Positions 41,327-46,174 of a stretch of 64,000 nt of DNA are shown here, one piece after another. Position numbers and translations under genes: made by a program. The notes under the pieces were generated by a model. The model did no database searches. It was given only the letters and a program-made list of their open reading frames with translations, and was not told the origin of the DNA. Origin of the DNA: Alphaproteobacteria bacterium (GTDB lineage: Bacteria > Pseudomonadota > Alphaproteobacteria > JBKEAR01); the NCBI GenBank assembly GCA_047973205.1, contig JBKEBO010000073.1, forward strand, positions 19,393 to 83,392. Reading direction: 5' to 3'. How positions within the stretch are numbered: the stretch's first letter is position 1; each line of letters opens with the position of its first letter.

Positions 41327-41980
41327 ATGTTGACGAAAAAGACTATAGGTTTCATACTGATTATTATTATAGCCTTAGGTTGTGGTATATTTCTTAATTA
41401 TTCCGAAAAATATATCCTGTTACCTTATTTTGTTAATATTGCGATAGCTTTACTTATGTTTTTCGTGGGCTTTTATAGTGTATTTTTTCTTTATCGTCAG
41501 GGAATAATTTTTTCTGTATTTGGCTGGATTTTGGTGGCTATTTCGGCCTATTTTACTTATCAGCTTTATCAAGATTTTAAAACAGTACAAATTTCGGGGC
41601 AAAATCAATCGGAGCCTCCTGATTATATTTTAAAAAAGAGAGGCCTACATTTTTATGCAGATGCTCTTGTTAATGGAACAAAGATTCACTTTTTAGTTGA
41701 TACGGGAGCTAGCCTAGTTACTATCACACGCAAGGATGCTCTAAGAGCAGGGATAGATGTGGATTCTATTGATGAATACTCAATGTTTTCAACGGCTAAT
41801 GGTGTAATTAGAAGCCCTATTACCCACATAAAAGAAATTCGCCTTGGTGATATTATTGCCCATGATATTTTAATCTCTATATCAGATGGTGAGCTTGAAC
41901 AAAATCTACTAGGGAATAGCTTTTTAGAACATGTTTCTCGAAAAATAGAAGTTGGCAACGAGCTTCATTTATGGCAATAA
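41327..41980 (+). CDS. Membrane-anchored retropepsin-like aspartic protease (TIGR02281/clan AA), paralog 1
   Basis: About 3 N-terminal TM; HFYADALVNG, FLVDTGAS, TANG flap, NLLGNSFL. Confidence 0.92.
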   Translation: MLTKKTIGFILIIIIALGCGIFLNYSEKYILLPYFVNIAIALLMFFVGFYSVFFLYRQGIIFSVFGWILVAISAYFTYQLYQDFKTVQISGQNQSEPPDYILKKRGLHFYADALVNGTKIHFLVDTGASLVTITRKDALRAGIDVDSIDEYSMFSTANGVIRSPITHIKEIRLGDIIAHDILISISDGELEQNLLGNSFLEHVSRKIEVGNELHLWQ

Positions 41981-42011: not shown

Positions 42012-42677
42012 ATGGCATCAAATAAACAAAATAAAACAACAGGTATTATCCTTCTTATTATTGCGGTTGTCTGTGGTCTTATACTCCTTAATCGCGTAGC
42101 AGGAGATTATATAGCCACACCCGAAGTTATTTATCCGATTGCTTTAATTTTAATGTTTGCAGGAGGTATTTGGGGAGCTTTTCGCTCTAACCCTGGACAA
42201 TTTTTACGAATAGTTCTTGGTTGGATGATGGTTTTTATGGCGATTATGTTCAGCTATACGATTTATCATGACTATAAAAATAGCCAGCTTGCTAAACAAA
42301 CGGAAGGGCTTACGCCAGATTATGTTATACAAAAGCAAGGAAGCCACTTTTATACGGATGCCTTAGTCAATGGGGTTCAAGTTGCATTTATGATAGATTC
42401 AGGGGCAAGTATGGTGGTACTTACCAAAGAAAGTGCTATAAAAGCAGGTATTGATGTTGATGCAATTAATGAGCATGTTATGACTTCAACGGCCAATGGG
42501 GCAAAACTTTTAAAAGCAGCTTATGTTAAGGAGATTCGCCTTGGTGATATTGTTGTTGAAAATCTTCGTGTGGCTGTTTCCGAAAAAGGGCTTAAAGATA
42601 ACCTCCTTGGTACTGATTTTATGAAACATGTTTCTAAAAAGGTTGAAGTTGGTAAAGAGCTGAGATTATGGAAATAA
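42012..42677 (+). CDS. Membrane-anchored retropepsin-like aspartic protease (TIGR02281/clan AA), paralog 2
   Basis: About 3 N-terminal TM; HFYTDALVNG, FMIDSGAS, TANG, NLLGTDFM. Confidence 0.92.
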   Translation: MASNKQNKTTGIILLIIAVVCGLILLNRVAGDYIATPEVIYPIALILMFAGGIWGAFRSNPGQFLRIVLGWMMVFMAIMFSYTIYHDYKNSQLAKQTEGLTPDYVIQKQGSHFYTDALVNGVQVAFMIDSGASMVVLTKESAIKAGIDVDAINEHVMTSTANGAKLLKAAYVKEIRLGDIVVENLRVAVSEKGLKDNLLGTDFMKHVSKKVEVGKELRLWK

Positions 42678-42689
42678 TGTATATAAGCC

Positions 42690-43649
42690 TTATTCCAACA
42701 TCATATTGATAATACCATTAATCACATAGCTCATTTTTATGAAATTAAGGGTTTCGATTGTATCAGAAGCCTCATGATAGTTTTTGTTTCGCATAAAGGC
42801 GGTATCAGTAACCATAATCGCCTTAAGGCCAATATCCCAATAATTATAATGATCACTAAAATCAACACCTTCAATTGAAGCAGGAGCGGCAAGACGATGA
42901 GCTTCTATTTGCCCTAGCTGATTAACGGCTCTGGCATATTCAGACACTAAAAAAAATGAAGCTATATTTCCTACTGAGGCAATATAATCGGCATGATTTG
43001 GATAAAAGGGCTTTAAAACAGTCGGATAGCTTTGAATATCCTCTTCGCTAAAAAAGCCAATCATCTCTAATGCCATCATACCTGTATATTGTGAAACTTT
43101 GTTTTTTATGGATTGAGCATGAATATAGCTCCCCATATATTCTGTTCTAAAATAAGGAGGCTCTTCTAGGCTAAAGGCAACAAATTCAATATTATACTTT
43201 AGCTGACTTTTATGCTTAAATAGCAATCGTGCAACTTCAACTAACCCTGCAACACCCGAGGCATTATCATCCGCTCCTGCTTGATTCCCATAAACATCAT
43301 AATGAGCCCCAATAATAAAAGTTTTATCTGCACCAACATCAATAAAACCAATAACATTTTTATAGATATTGGTTGTATCTTCTAGTTGATATTCTTGATA
43401 TTTAGGATTAAGTCCAATCTTTTCAAAATTATCTTTGATATATGTCGCTACTCGATTAAGCTCATCAATATTTTGATAGTTGCGAAAAGTATCTTTGGAA
43501 ATAATATGAGAGATATGTTCTCGTAAATTAATAGGGGATGCCCGCTCAAAAGAAGGGCGGAAAAAAGCAGGAAAAGAAGGATTATGGTAAAACCAAAAAG
43601 CGGTGCTTGTTAAGATAATAAATAAAATAAGTAGTGGTAATTTAAACAT
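42690..43649 (-). CDS. M28 family metallopeptidase
   Basis: IGAHYD, GADDNASG, FSLEE, LEMIG, FSDH, NYHEASD; N-terminal anchor. Confidence 0.92.
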   Translation of the reverse strand: MFKLPLLILFIILTSTAFWFYHNPSFPAFFRPSFERASPINLREHISHIISKDTFRNYQNIDELNRVATYIKDNFEKIGLNPKYQEYQLEDTTNIYKNVIGFIDVGADKTFIIGAHYDVYGNQAGADDNASGVAGLVEVARLLFKHKSQLKYNIEFVAFSLEEPPYFRTEYMGSYIHAQSIKNKVSQYTGMMALEMIGFFSEEDIQSYPTVLKPFYPNHADYIASVGNIASFFLVSEYARAVNQLGQIEAHRLAAPASIEGVDFSDHYNYWDIGLKAIMVTDTAFMRNKNYHEASDTIETLNFIKMSYVINGIINMMLE

Positions 43650-43848
43650 TTTTTCTCTTTTATTTAGGTGTGAACATTATATAAAGTCTATAATTTATGA
43701 TAGTATGACCAAGTAATAACACTACTTTATATAATATTTAAAATACACGCAACAAACCAGAGGTTGTTTTTAACTATTCAGAGAAAATAAAAAATACCCC
43801 TCAAAAATTATTAAGGAGTATTTTTTCATATTTTTTTAAAGATAGATG

Positions 43849-44859
43849 TTAATCACTCTCAGCATCTAAAATAGAATTTTTAAAGATAATCTCTTTGAGC
43901 ATGAAAGCAGGGGTATGTTCTCCCATACCAATAACACGGCCTTGGGGGCTACGGCGAACTTTCGGTTTATCTATGGCTTTGATTTCTATATCAAGTTTAA
44001 GCTCAGAATGTTCCTCTTCAACAATAGGAGCATCATCTTCTTTTGCTTCTAACACTTCATCGCTCTTACGGCGGCGTGTCCGTTTTTTAGGAAGACGCTC
44101 TTGGCTCTCCTCTTCAGAAGATTTTTTGCGACGAGAGCGGGTTTTGCTCACAACCGTTTCTTCTTCTTGAGTTTCTTCTTCTTTTGCTTTTTTAGCCTTT
44201 GGTTCTTTAGTCTCTTTTTTCTTTGATGAAGCTTTTGTCGTTTTCTTTTCTTGAGCTTTTTCTTTGCTATCTAAGGCATCTTTATCTTTCTTAGCCTCAA
44301 CCTCTTTTGCTTTTAAATCAACAGAAAGATTTATATTTCTGTGACCTTTAAGGCGGCCAAGTTGTATCAAAGTATCACCATTTCCCGTAAGGCTTGCTAT
44401 AATTTTTTCATCATCAGGTGAAACAAATGACCATAACTCCAACTTACTTTTGCGTGTTAGGGCAAGCTCTATGGTTTCTGTATAATCATTTGCCTTTGTG
44501 GGGAAGTCCAAATTGATGATATGCGAAACATTAATTTTTATATCAAAGCCTTTAATCTCATCACGAGTAGCCACAATGAATAGGGGAGTATTCTTTGCCT
44601 TTTCAATAGCTTCTTTATCTTCTTTTGAGATTGAAGATAGTGCAAGAACACTATTAGGATACTCTTTTTCAAGATGTTTAAGAGTACTGGTTACACTTCT
44701 TTTTTGATTACATACAATAAGTGCTGCTTTGATGCTTTTGTTCGCTACAAATTGACTTAAAAGTTGCCGCTTCTTTATGGGAAGGGTTTCTGTTTTTTTC
44801 TCACCAGCCTTTAAAGTCAAGATATATTGCTTTATAGACTTATCTGTCGTTGTGTTCAC
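43849..44859 (-). CDS. Degenerate stand-alone DEAD-box helicase C-terminal (RecA2) domain with Lys/Glu-rich tail
   Basis: ALIVCNQKRSV (motif IV-like); FIVATRDEIKGFD...VSHIINLDFP..ANDY (motif V region); motif VI lost; ends VIGMGEHTPAFM. GTG start with SD aaggag. Confidence 0.7.
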   Translation of the reverse strand: MNTTTDKSIKQYILTLKAGEKKTETLPIKKRQLLSQFVANKSIKAALIVCNQKRSVTSTLKHLEKEYPNSVLALSSISKEDKEAIEKAKNTPLFIVATRDEIKGFDIKINVSHIINLDFPTKANDYTETIELALTRKSKLELWSFVSPDDEKIIASLTGNGDTLIQLGRLKGHRNINLSVDLKAKEVEAKKDKDALDSKEKAQEKKTTKASSKKKETKEPKAKKAKEEETQEEETVVSKTRSRRKKSSEEESQERLPKKRTRRRKSDEVLEAKEDDAPIVEEEHSELKLDIEIKAIDKPKVRRSPQGRVIGMGEHTPAFMLKEIIFKNSILDAESD

Positions 44860-45002
44860 AGGAGTTTCTCCTTAAAATTAGATATTCAAATTATTGTCAG
44901 TCACAAATAGTGTATATCTGATATATTATATTGCTTTTCATAGTTGTTTTATCATATTGTAGACCATCTGCAAAATATTAATTTAATAAAAGATAAGGTT
45001 TC

Positions 45003-45698: not shown

Positions 45699-45775
45699 GT
45701 AAAAGCTTGATAGTTTGCCCATAGTTGCTTAAGATACAAAAAAGTAAAATTATATTCTTTATTAAAGGTCTACGG

Positions 45776-46174
45776 ATGAAAAAGATATTATTATTTTTAG
45801 TCCTGTTATCTGCATGTTCGCAAAATTCTCCTGATTTTATGCAGGTTCCAGGAACTCAAGCCGCTAAAAAATGTCCTATTATTCAAAAAGGGCAAACAGT
45901 TGCAGTCGCTAAAATTAGCTTTGAGGCTCAAAGTATAAAAATGCCTGAGGATGCTCAAGCTATCTTATCAGAAGTTGCCGAGATGCACCGCCGTTGCGGA
46001 GGGCAAATTCTTGTGAATGGCTCAAGCCTATCAGCAGAACCAAAGGATTATGGCTACTTACGTGCAGGCCTTGTTTATAAAGAGTTAGAAAAACAACGAG
46101 CTATAATTTCTTATGGAAAATTTACTCAAAAAGATAATTCAACCCGAGATGTTACCATCTCCTTTAAAAAATAG
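45776..46174 (+). CDS. Lipoprotein with degenerate OmpA-like C-terminal domain
   Basis: MKKILLFLVLLSAC lipobox; ISF..S..M...AQAIL, ILVNG, LRA..V, R.V pattern resembles OmpA_C. Confidence 0.65.
   Translation: MKKILLFLVLLSACSQNSPDFMQVPGTQAAKKCPIIQKGQTVAVAKISFEAQSIKMPEDAQAILSEVAEMHRRCGGQILVNGSSLSAEPKDYGYLRAGLVYKELEKQRAIISYGKFTQKDNSTRDVTISFKK

What the first reader, a model, noticed from the sequence alone, without database searches (positions are those of the whole stretch)
43849..44859. Half-helicase pseudoenzyme: DEAD-box RecA2 domain only, catalytic motifs erased, C-terminal motif retained
Seen: intact 336-aa ORF with a strong SD. It begins at what looks like the inter-domain linker (TTDKSIKQY), with no Q motif, Walker A or DEAD box. 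Motif IV is recognisable (IVCNQK), motif V has drifted (ARGLD to IKGFD), and motif VI HRIGRTGR is replaced by ETIELALTR. It is followed by ~140 aa of K/E/R-rich disorder (SRRKK, RTRRRK) and the terminal GMGEHTPAFM, resembling the GxGDHxPAF(L) tail I recall from alphaproteobacterial RhlE-like helicases. Only 143 bp separate it from the divergent gene, so no RecA1 half is adjacent. Inference: an ATPase-dead RNA-binding adaptor or scaffold (degradosome, condensate or ribosome assembly), or half of a split helicase acting in trans.
Basis: partly seen in the sequence, partly recalled or inferred. Interest (0 to 1): 0.7.

Follow-up and report, generated by a model that had tools for sequence, protein, structure and literature searches.

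The report
Half-helicase that keeps its RNase E anchor
An uncultured alphaproteobacterium has kept only the rear half of an RNA helicase, with its catalytic motifs erased, together with a tail that is predicted to dock onto the RNA-cutting enzyme RNase E, so a motor enzyme seems to have become a motorless accessory of the RNA-decay machinery.

Summary
Window 43849-44859 (-) is an intact 336-aa gene with a Shine-Dalgarno site (SD), a GTG start and an upstream in-frame stop. It encodes only the second RecA-like domain (RecA2) of a DEAD-box helicase: Pfam Helicase_C, Foldseek probability 1.0. Behind RecA2 lie about 120 disordered, highly charged residues and a conserved 50-aa C-terminal module ending in GMGEHTPAFM.

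The closest full-length relatives (545-583 aa) have every helicase motif and the same C-terminus. The truncated forms make one clade (support 100/99), start at the same linker position and have lost motifs IVa, V and VI. They are under purifying selection (dN/dS 0.24 overall, 0.06 in the C-terminal module). The sister species has the same gene in the same place. It is therefore neither a misassembly nor a decaying fragment.

No orphan RecA1 gene was found in the genome, so a split helicase is unsupported.

A tail of the type GxG(D/E)HxPAF ends DEAD-box helicases across Alphaproteobacteria. [quoted passage not shown] Here, a complex prediction places the PAFM core on alpha-specific RNase E residues (score 0.81; best control 0.00).

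Best reading: an ATPase-dead accessory subunit docked on RNase E. The docking is predicted, not measured.

The parts
43849..44859 (-). Whole gene: 336-aa RecA2-only helicase derivative (stop codon at 43849-43851)
   Evidence: ORF list; Pfam Helicase_C only; 100% match to cluster P0001
44868..44873 (-). Shine-Dalgarno AAGGAG, 8 nt before the GTG start. An in-frame TAA at 44872-44874 closes the frame upstream.
   Evidence: Read from the sequence. The sister species also has AAGGAG, an 8-nt spacer and GTG.
44365..44838 (-). RecA2-like domain (residues 8-165). Motif IV is kept (IVCNQKR); motifs IVa, V and VI are replaced. It carries a clade-specific insertion, TLKAGEKKTE, after the first strand.
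   Evidence: AF2 pLDDT 70-92. Foldseek top hits are RecA2 of YxiN, eIF4A and DDX proteins, probability 1.0, TM(target) 0.71. Motif alignment. dN/dS 0.23.
44335..44361 (-). Conserved post-RecA2 island LGRLKGHRN (residues 167-175), shared with the nearest full-length helicases only
   Evidence: Invariant L167 G168 R169 L170 G172 H173 N175 in the truncated set. Present in P0003-6 and P0013, absent from the outgroups. Modelled as short strands, pLDDT 77-87, in the subclade-B model.
44005..44313 (-). Disordered, highly charged K/E/R-rich linker (residues 183-285)
   Evidence: pLDDT under 50. 59% charged, net +5, no aromatic residues. Length and sequence vary among relatives. dN/dS 0.35.
44068..44100 (-). 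Conserved basic island ERLPKKRTRRR (residues 254-264) inside the linker
   Evidence: R255 L256 P257 K259 R260 R262 R264 are invariant across all 11 aligned relatives.
43852..44004 (-). Conserved C-terminal module (residues 286-336), the predicted RNase E-docking element
   Evidence: 69-75% identical among truncated forms, against 26-51% for RecA2. dN/dS 0.06. pLDDT 72-83 with strands. Residues 287-333 make the predicted interface with the RNase E N-terminal domain.
43900..43929 (-). Tail core GMGEHTPAFM (residues 311-320)
   Evidence: Read from the sequence. The motif is found at the C-end of alphaproteobacterial DEAD-box helicases. The contacts with the lowest expected error in the complex model involve residues 317-320.
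43789..43826 (-). Terminator-like hairpin followed by a T-run, just 3' of the stop codon
   Evidence: Consensus scan: 1 site found against 0.9 expected, so it is weak evidence on its own.
44860..45002 (.). 143-bp divergent intergenic region with no RecA1 coding remnant
   Evidence: Six-frame translation is full of stops and has no helicase motif. The equivalent gap in the sister species is 151 bp.

Best explanation
The gene encodes a functional pseudo-helicase. An ancestor of this small alphaproteobacterial clade deleted the RecA1 half of its tail-bearing DEAD-box helicase. That helicase type is the one whose C-terminal extension anchors the helicase to RNase E in Caulobacter.

What survives is (i) a RecA2 fold that can no longer form an ATPase site, (ii) a charged disordered linker with conserved basic islands, and (iii) a C-terminal module ending in GMGEHTPAFM.

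Most likely mechanism:
[quoted passage not shown] The PAFM core inserts against the alpha-specific EIHPDY and RDYEYLLRxW segments.
- This tethers the basic linker and the RecA2 platform beside the RNase E RNA channel.
- There the protein acts without ATP, as an RNA-holding or chaperone-like accessory, or as a modulator of RNase E.

Shown here: the architecture, the loss of motifs, a single origin, purifying selection and the spread of the tail. Predicted in silico: the docking on RNase E. Inferred only: what the docked protein does.
For: Architecture and fold:
- Helicase_C is the only family above threshold.
- Two AF2 models, of this protein and of subclade-B member P0011, both give RecA2. Foldseek probability is 1.0. 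VIA-align gives Z 18.9, rmsd 2.2 A over 153 residues, to 5gi4_B.

Descent:
- Full-length relatives P0003-6 and P0013 carry GKT/GKS, DEAD and HRIGRxGR and share the clade-specific insertion, the LGRLKGHRN island, the ERLPKKRxRRR island and the C-terminal module.
- The truncated forms are one clade, 100/99, on RecA2 plus C-terminal columns, and 75/96 on RecA2 alone.

Selection:
- G000 against G001 gives dN/dS of 0.24 for the whole gene, 0.23 for RecA2, 0.35 for the linker and 0.06 for the C-terminal module, with dS saturated at about 1.6.
- Six intact truncated proteins at 34-47% identity come from separate assemblies.
- Synteny, SD and GTG start are conserved in the sister species.

ATPase-dead: there is no RecA1 in the gene or the upstream gap. 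Motifs V and VI are replaced.

Tail:
- The strict G-x-G-[DE]-H-x-P-A-F pattern is found in 114 of 401 sampled class genomes, against 2 hits for the reversed control, and nearly always once per genome (the tally includes unpublished G240).
- 23 of 29 motif ORFs in the fetched loci show DEAD plus motif VI.
- 15 of 18 best helicases in a one-per-family sample end in a strict or variant xPAF tail.

RNase E link:
- Published: Caulobacter RhlB residues 416-517 (the C-terminal extension), not the RecA core, bind RNase E. RNase E 1-274 forms a 1:1 complex with RhlB (PMC4245959; passages, section 15 and supplement legends). PMC10715135 restates this.
- Complex prediction of this genome's RNase E N-terminal domain (293 aa) with residues 245-336 scores 0.81 (runs 0.81, 0.81, 0.80), best of 3 controls 0.00. 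That mark was reached by 116 of 157 solved complexes and 2 of 215 mismatched pairs. The runs agree in at least 68% of contacts, and the partner pLDDT is at least 59.
- The interface uses partner residues 287-333. The lowest-error pairs join P317-M320 to RNase E residues 76-79, 159-161, 191-192 and 246-262.
- Those RNase E segments are identical or near-identical in Caulobacter 4OXP (EIHPDYY, RDYEYLLRLW) and differ in E. coli (EIAREYF, WDLSFRLKHW). They fall inside the fragment mapped in Caulobacter.
- No solved chain contains the tail (0 hits), so the pass is unlikely to come from memory of a solved complex.
Against: - The docking is a prediction made with my own shallow alignments (16 and 11 rows). 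The tool warns that its calibration counts hold only roughly in that case.
- I could not verify that Caulobacter RhlB (cc1847) itself carries the GxGDHxPAF tail. The paper's alignment figure S10 is an image, and no named Caulobacter sequence was available. The link between the published binding and this tail is therefore an inference.
- The predicted RNase E contact residues H76, D78 and Y79 are invariant in all 16 aligned RNase E sequences. Only 3 of those 16 genomes match the strict tail pattern, although variant xPAF tails exist. Conservation of that surface is therefore not specific evidence for tail binding.
- There are no expression data.
- What RecA2 does is unknown. Between the two truncated subclades it is only 26-30% identical, and RNA-contact motifs IVa and V are lost.
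- The linker is a near-neutral polyampholyte (net +5), so strong non-specific RNA binding is not a given.
Confidence: 0.55

Rival explanations
1. It is a functional RecA2-only protein, but the tail's partner is not RNase E. The partner could be the ribosome or a ribosome-assembly intermediate, another RNA-metabolism protein, or the protein's own RecA2 or post-RecA2 segment. In that case it would act as a free-standing, ATP-independent RNA chaperone or adaptor.
For: - Conservation and selection say only that it works, not with what.
- In both AF2 monomer models the C-terminal module is confidently folded (pLDDT 72-83). In the P0011 model the LGRLRGHRN segment forms short strands too, which would fit an intramolecular mini-domain.
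- The RNase E contact surface is conserved even in genomes without a strict tail.
- RecA2 domains are docking platforms for many different partners among the fold matches, for example SrmB-RraA 2yjt, DDX6-CNOT1 4crw and Vasa-Oskar 5nt7.
Against: - The complex prediction with RNase E scores 0.81 against 0.00 for all three controls.
- It places the most conserved tail residues on alpha-specific RNase E residues, inside the fragment that binds the RhlB C-terminal extension in Caulobacter.
- No alternative partner was tested, so this rival is weakened only indirectly.
Confidence: 0.27
2. It is one half of a split DEAD-box helicase. It pairs in trans with a separately encoded RecA1 protein to rebuild an active ATPase.
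For: The protein begins exactly at the inter-domain linker. The genome is 95.6% complete, so a partner gene could lie in the missing part.
Against: - The Pfam DEAD search of the whole genome finds RecA1 only inside multi-domain helicases (10 matches, all in open frames of 322-1164 aa; the 322-aa one is a sub-threshold 19.7-bit match that I did not inspect).
- tblastn with the RecA1 half of P0004 hits only the complete 437-aa helicase on contig C24.
- Motif VI (HRIGRTGR becomes ETIELALT) and motif V (AARGID becomes EIKGFD), both needed for ATP hydrolysis and coupling, are replaced. Subclade B even has a 4-residue deletion in motif VI.
Confidence: 0.03
3. It is a decaying gene fragment or an assembly artefact that removed the 5' half.
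For: The RecA2 domain evolves fast: the truncated clade's stem is 0.62 changes per column against 0.17 for the full-length sister group. There is no expression evidence.
Against: - The same truncated architecture, with the same start position, occurs in at least six intact proteins from separate assemblies, on contigs of 4.5 to 87 kb.
- Only 8 proteins in a library of 1.84 billion score E<1e-30. They include 4 intact truncated proteins and 2 fragments of truncated type.
- The sister species has it on a 288-kb contig with conserved neighbours, SD and GTG start.
- dN/dS is 0.24 overall and 0.06 in the C-terminal module despite saturated dS.
Confidence: 0.02

Closest known systems
Caulobacter crescentus RhlB (cc1847), the degradosome DEAD-box helicase
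   Same: The published mode of attachment is that the C-terminal extension (residues 416-517), not the RecA core, binds the RNase E catalytic domain, and RNase E 1-274 is sufficient (PMC4245959). Here the C-terminal module is predicted to bind the homologous part of RNase E, on residues that are conserved in Caulobacter RNase E.
   Different: RhlB is a complete, active two-domain helicase. This protein has no RecA1 and no motifs V or VI. I could not check whether cc1847 carries the GxGDHxPAF tail.
Full-length sister helicases P0003-P0006 and P0013 (545-583 aa, metagenomic or MAG proteins)
   Same: They share the clade-specific TxKAGxxxxE insertion, motif IV CNQKR, the LGRLKGHRN and ERLPKKRxRRR islands and the 50-aa C-terminal module. 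Identity is 35-40% over 97-98% of the query.
   Different: They retain the Q-motif region, Walker A, DEAD, SAT-like, QxxR, ARGID and HRIGRTGR motifs. The truncated clade lacks all of RecA1 and has degenerate motifs IVa, V and VI.
Pseudomonas aeruginosa RhlE2
   Same: It is a DEAD-box helicase whose C-terminal extension mediates binding to RNase E (stated in PMC10715135; PMC8266600 seen as a search listing only). It is the best NCBIfam match of the query, covering residues 29-271.
   Different: The match scores 42 bits against a cut-off of 925, so the query is not a member. RhlE2 is catalytically active. No tail motif was tested in it.
Pseudohelicases such as yeast Utp25 and Deinococcus radiodurans PriA
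   Same: They are helicase-derived proteins that lost catalytic motifs and serve as structural or adaptor factors (search listing only).
   Different: As far as I recall (not tested here) they keep both RecA-like domains. The present protein keeps only RecA2.
Isolated RecA2 domains used as protein-docking platforms (SrmB-RraA 2yjt, DDX6-EDC3/CNOT1 2wax/4crw, Vasa-Oskar 5nt7, eIF4A-PDCD4 2zu6)
   Same: The fold is the same: Z 17-19, rmsd 2.0-2.7 A over 146-164 residues. RecA2 surfaces are known to bind regulators.
   Different: Those are domains of full helicases that were cut out for crystallography. Here nature encodes the half on its own.

Membership tests
DEAD-box RNA helicase (SF2 enzyme) | RecA1 domain with the Q motif, Walker A (motif I), DEAD (motif II) and SAT (motif III) | tested here: not met
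   There is no Pfam DEAD match. The protein starts at the inter-domain linker. The upstream in-frame stop and the 143-bp gap hold no remnant.
DEAD-box RNA helicase (SF2 enzyme) | RecA2 fold | tested here: met
   Foldseek probability 1.0 to RecA2 of YxiN and eIF4A. Z 18.9 for clade member P0011.
DEAD-box RNA helicase (SF2 enzyme) | RecA2 catalytic and coupling motifs V (ARGxD) and VI (HRxGRxGR), and RNA motif IVa (QxxR) | tested here: not met
   In the alignment with full-length relatives, AARGID becomes EIKGFD, HRIGRTGR becomes ETIELALT and LSQSER becomes ISKEDK. Motif IV (CNQKR) is kept.
Pfam PF00271 Helicase_C | Score above the gathering threshold | tested here: met
   26.3 bits against a cut-off of 23.5, E 9.6e-6, residues 30-127.
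NCBIfam equivalogs RhlE, RhlE1, RhlE2, RhlB, SrmB, DbpA, CsdA | Whole-protein score above the curated cut-off | tested here: not met
   The best match is RhlE2 at 42.2 bits against 925, and all others are lower. Even the full-length relatives P0004, P0013 and P0047 stay below every cut-off.
Alphaproteobacterial tail-bearing DEAD-box helicases (family defined here) | C-terminal motif G-x-G-[DE]-H-x-P-x-F within about 40 residues of the stop | tested here: met
   GMGEHTPAF lies 17 residues from the stop. The same motif ends helicases in many families.
Alphaproteobacterial tail-bearing DEAD-box helicases (family defined here) | Common descent with full-length members | tested here: met
   The truncated clade plus the nearest full-length helicases separate from the outgroups at 99/98. 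The truncated clade is sister to P0003-6.
RNase E degradosome helicase of the Caulobacter RhlB type | The C-terminal extension binds the RNase E catalytic N-terminal domain | tested here: inconclusive
   In-silico test only: score 0.81, best of 3 controls 0.00. The mark was reached by 116 of 157 solved complexes and 2 of 215 mismatched pairs, with at least 68% contact agreement and partner pLDDT of at least 59. No binding experiment has been done.
RNase E degradosome helicase of the Caulobacter RhlB type | Orthology to cc1847 (cc1847 carries the same tail) | not testable with these tools
   No named Caulobacter helicase sequence was available. Figure S10 of PMC4245959 is an image.

The most novel reading that the evidence does not exclude
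Two linked claims. (1) The xGxG(D/E)HxPAF(L/M) tail is the so far undescribed short linear motif by which alphaproteobacterial degradosome helicases, Caulobacter RhlB included, plug into an alpha-specific pocket (EIHPDY / RDYEYLLRxW) on the RNase E catalytic domain. (2) One uncultured clade has turned this helicase into a motorless, RecA2-only subunit. Its degradosome would then carry a pseudo-helicase that holds or presents RNA, or gates the S1 channel, without ATP. This would be the first natural 'half-helicase' pseudoenzyme described in bacteria.
Probability: 0.35. Interest if true: 0.8.

Novelty: new variant of a known kind. Interest (0 to 1): 0.62.

Why it matters
DEAD-box helicases are regarded as two-lobed ATP-driven clamps. 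A conserved protein made of the rear lobe alone shows that the non-catalytic parts (the RecA2 surface, the charged linker and the docking tail) have a selectable function of their own.

It also points to a concrete, testable docking motif and pocket for the helicase-RNase E contact in Alphaproteobacteria. That contact was mapped in Caulobacter only to a 100-residue extension and a 274-residue fragment. A few point mutations in the tail (P317, F319, M320 equivalents), or in the RNase E EIHPDY segment, would test it in a tractable model organism.

The clade itself is rare: only 8 proteins at E<1e-30 among 1.84 billion representatives. The immediate reach is therefore mechanistic rather than ecological.

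Tried and rejected
- GTDB family and order searches returned only this genome and one congener. The class and relatives samples held no member of the lineages that encode P0003-P0013. Their genomic context and helicase complement could therefore not be examined.
- The genome contigs and metagenome-contig scans gave only the sister species and two distant full-length helicases.
- Searching with the C-terminal module alone found only its own family (4 hits of 9 candidates).
- PDB sequence searches with this tail and with a typical alphaproteobacterial tail gave 0 hits each.
- Literature: 0 papers contain the strings GDHVPAF, GDHMPAF, GEHTPAF or GDHLPAF. Searches on RhlE and alphaproteobacterial C-termini and on RhlB/AlphaFold/S1 gave nothing on the motif.
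- Sequencing runs: no RNA holder is listed, and only one DNA run holds a small share (0.12) of the stretch's words. No reads were laid.
- ESM Atlas: all feature scores were under 0.9. The Helicase_C-only clusters it lists cannot be told apart from contig-edge fragments.
- Neighbouring genes (alpha/beta hydrolase, M28 peptidase, aspartyl proteases, SNF symporter, aminotransferase, homoserine dehydrogenase) give no functional hint.
- The promoter scan found no more sites than in shuffled sequence (5 against 5.1).
- Not examined: the weak PF00270 match on contig C12 (19.7 bits) and protein P0021 (tail present, motif VI regex absent).
Full report
**1. What is there**

Window 43849-44859 (minus strand) holds an intact 336-aa ORF with a GTG start. 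AAGGAG lies 8 nt upstream of the start, and an in-frame TAA five codons upstream closes the frame (open frame 340 aa). A terminator-like hairpin follows the stop codon.

The 143 bp up to the divergent alpha/beta-hydrolase gene contain no coding remnant in any frame. Gene GC content (36.8%) matches the window (37.6%).

The only Pfam family above threshold is Helicase_C (26.3 bits against 23.5, residues 30-127). NCBIfam helicase equivalogs match the same part, far below their cut-offs; the best is RhlE2 at 42 against 925. The best PDB sequence match is the RecA2 domain of Vasa (E 2e-7).

**2. Fold**

An AlphaFold2 model built on 11 aligned relatives has three parts:
- residues 10-160, alpha/beta, pLDDT 70-92;
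- residues 166-285, disordered, pLDDT under 50;
- residues 290-330, folded again, pLDDT 72-83, with strands and one short helix.

Foldseek returns RecA2 domains of DEAD-box proteins: YxiN 2hjv (E 1e-8, probability 1.0, TM by target 0.71), eIF4A, DDX3, DDX6 and Vasa. There are 443 matches at E<=1e-3.

A second model, of the most degenerate clade member P0011, gives the same result: pLDDT 75-91 for residues 10-180. VIA-align Z is 18.9 (rmsd 2.2 A over 153 residues) to 5gi4_B and 18.5 to the SrmB RecA2 of 2yjt.

**3. Relatives and how the gene arose**

The word-indexed search found 11 proteins among 5586 candidates:
- the query itself;
- five intact truncated proteins (343-386 aa, 34-47% identity);
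- one fragment;
- four full-length helicases (545-583 aa, 35-40% identity over 97-98% of the query).

An exhaustive profile search of 1.84 billion representatives found only 8 proteins at E<1e-30. They are four intact truncated proteins, two truncated fragments and two full-length helicases. The family is therefore rare.

The full-length proteins carry Walker A, DEAD and HRIGRxGR. They share four features with the truncated ones: a clade-specific insertion after the first RecA2 strand (TxKAGxxxxE), motif IV CNQKR, the LGRLKGHRN island, and the ERLPKKRxRRR island plus the 50-aa C-terminal module.

In the truncated proteins:
- the N-terminus aligns with the inter-domain linker;
- motif IVa, LSQSER, becomes ISKEDK;
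- motif V, AARGID, becomes EIKGFD;
- motif VI, HRIGRTGR, becomes ETIELALT, and one subclade also has a 4-residue deletion there.

On RecA2 columns alone the truncated proteins form one group with 75/96 support. With the post-RecA2 and C-terminal columns added, support is 100/99. The truncated clade plus the nearest full-length helicases separate from other alphaproteobacterial helicases at 99/98. P0012 was cut to its first 215 residues because its end looks frame-shifted. A single loss of RecA1 is the simplest history.

The stem of the truncated clade is long (0.62 changes per column, against 0.17 for the full-length sister group). RecA2 therefore changed fast after the loss.

**4. Not an artefact, not decaying**

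The GTDB family and order of this genome contain only one other genome. That genome is a MAG labelled only Alphaproteobacteria. It has a 367-aa ortholog (53% identity) on a 288-kb contig, with the same SD and GTG start and a 151-bp gap to the same divergent hydrolase gene. Behind that lie the same 132/149-aa ORF, aminotransferase and homoserine dehydrogenase.

Nei-Gojobori estimates between the two species are as follows.

| Region | dN/dS |
|---|---|
| Whole gene | 0.24 |
| RecA2 | 0.23 |
| Linker | 0.35 |
| C-terminal module | 0.06 |

dS is near saturation (about 1.6), which makes these ratios overestimates rather than underestimates.

Between the two truncated subclades RecA2 is only 26-30% identical, while the C-terminal module is 69-71% identical. 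The C-terminus is the most constrained part.

**5. Split helicase?**

The genome is 95.6% complete with 0.06% contamination. It has 10 matches to Pfam DEAD, all inside long multi-domain frames. One sub-threshold 19.7-bit match on contig C12 was not inspected.

tblastn with the RecA1 half of full-length relative P0004 hits only the complete 437-aa helicase on contig C24. That helicase has all motifs and no tail. The tail motif occurs nowhere else in the genome.

With motifs V and VI gone, a helicase assembled in trans is very unlikely.

**6. The tail**

The regular expression G.G[DE]H.P.F was found at the C-end of full-length DEAD-box helicases in 15 of the 28 class loci fetched, and in both metagenome loci.

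A strict DNA pattern for G-x-G-[DE]-H-x-P-A-F matches 114 of 401 sampled alphaproteobacterial genomes. The reversed control pattern gives 2 hits. The match is nearly always single-copy (the tally includes one unpublished genome, G240).

In the 30 loci fetched from that search, 29 ORFs carry the motif. Of these, 23 show DEAD and motif VI within the fetched piece, and one is a clear chance hit.

In a one-genome-per-family sample, 10 of 18 best helicases end with the strict motif. Five more have variants such as GWGNHMPAFF, GFGQFVPAFML or DDMPAFL. Three have none. The invariant core is therefore xPAF(L/M).

No paper in the searchable library contains four typical spellings of the motif. No PDB chain contains it.

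**7. Link to RNase E**

Voss et al. 2014 (PMC4245959; I read passages, section 15 and the text of the supplement legends) report three relevant results:
- Caulobacter RhlB residues 416-517, its C-terminal extension, bind the RNase E catalytic domain, and the RecA core (residues 1-390) does not.
- RNase E 1-274 forms a 1:1 complex with RhlB.
- The GST-tagged extension pulls down RNase E, aconitase and PNPase.

A 2023 paper restates that RhlB contacts the S1 region through its carboxy-terminal portion (PMC10715135, passages). I could not check that cc1847 ends in the tail motif. That step is an inference.

This genome encodes an RNase E of 780 aa, with a probable start at Met28, an acidic S1 insertion and a C-terminal RGWWNK.

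I submitted its N-terminal 293 residues (alignment of 16 relatives) and residues 245-336 of the finding (alignment A1) to the controlled complex test. The results were:
- Score 0.81 (three runs: 0.81, 0.81, 0.80); best of 3 controls 0.00.
- That mark was reached by 116 of 157 solved complexes and 2 of 215 mismatched pairs.
- The runs agree in at least 68% of contacts, and the partner pLDDT is at least 59.
- The tool notes that its counts hold only roughly with user-supplied alignments.

The interface uses partner residues 287-333. The lowest-error contacts join P317, A318, F319 and M320 to RNase E residues 76, 78-79, 159-161, 191-192 and 246-262.

Aligned to solved structures, these RNase E segments read EIHPDYF and RDYEYLLRVW here. 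In Caulobacter 4OXP they read EIHPDYY and RDYEYLLRLW. In E. coli they read EIAREYF and WDLSFRLKHW. All lie within the Caulobacter 1-274 fragment.

The prediction therefore agrees with the published mapping and supplies a specific pocket. Against over-reading it: H76, D78 and Y79 are invariant in all 16 aligned RNase E sequences, and only 3 of those genomes carry the strict tail.

**8. Mechanism proposed**

- Shown: an ATPase site cannot form; the protein is maintained by selection; its most constrained element is the C-terminal module.
- Predicted: that module docks on the S1/5'-sensor face of RNase E.
- Inferred: once docked, the charged linker, with its two conserved basic islands, and the RecA2 platform sit beside the RNase E RNA channel. 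There they act without ATP by holding, annealing or presenting RNA, by recruiting a further partner through RecA2, or by gating RNase E.

The linker is a near-neutral polyampholyte (59% charged, net +5). RNA binding would rest mainly on the basic islands.

The LGRLKGHRN island and the extended C-terminal module occur together. They are present in the truncated clade and its full-length sisters and absent from the outgroups. They may fold into one small split domain. I could not inspect contacts in the monomer models.

**9. Novelty**

The helicase family, the RecA2 fold and the principle of helicase-RNase E attachment through a C-terminal extension are all known. Three things appear to be new:
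- a naturally encoded, conserved RecA2-only derivative (the pseudohelicases I found listed, Utp25 and D. radiodurans PriA, keep both lobes as far as I recall; search listing only);
- recognition of the xPAF tail as a class-wide motif;
- its predicted pocket on RNase E.

I rate it a new variant of a known kind, of moderate to high interest to the RNA-decay field. The limits are the rarity of the clade, the lack of a cultured host and the absence of any experiment.

Noticed in passing
window 41327-41980 (+) and 42012-42677 (+): Two adjacent paralogous genes (217 and 221 aa). Each has an N-terminal hydrophobic, membrane-like region and a C-terminal retropepsin-type aspartyl protease domain (gag-asp_proteas, E 1e-22 and 2e-21). 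The sister species has one such gene at the same place.
   Followed up: partly
window 42690-43649 (-): An M28 peptidase gene lies directly downstream of the finding in this genome. In the sister species a LysE-type translocator gene occupies that position. It is the only break in local synteny that I saw.
   Followed up: partly
G000 contig C31, locus L071:423-2765: This genome's RNase E (780-aa ORF, probable start at Met28) has a strongly acidic insertion in the S1 domain, a K/E/R-rich C-terminal half and the ending RGWWNK. From recall (not tested) this resembles the GWW PNPase-binding motif of Caulobacter RNase E.
   Followed up: partly
loci L053, L057, L060, L063, L069 (class relatives): Variant helicase tails keep only the xPAF(L/M) core: GWGNHMPAFF, GFGQFVPAFML, DDMPAFLRRP, SQVPAFLRQP, PYVPAFLLRP. 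The Gly-x-Gly-Asp-His part is therefore dispensable in some lineages.
   Followed up: partly
window 45725-46174 (+): A 149-aa ORF with a lipoprotein-like signal (LLFLVLLSAC) and no Pfam match. A 132-aa ORF sits at the same position in the sister species.
   Followed up: no
G000 contig C24, locus L001:1414-2727: This is the only canonical DEAD-box helicase found in the genome (437 aa, best NCBIfam match SrmB at 391 bits, below the cut-off of 507). It has a lysine-rich C-terminus and no xPAF tail. The lineage therefore appears to run on a single active DEAD-box helicase.
   Followed up: partly
protein P0012 (275 aa): A truncated-type family member whose last 35 or so residues lose all similarity inside the low-complexity linker. 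This looks like a frameshift or a sequencing error in that assembly.
   Followed up: no
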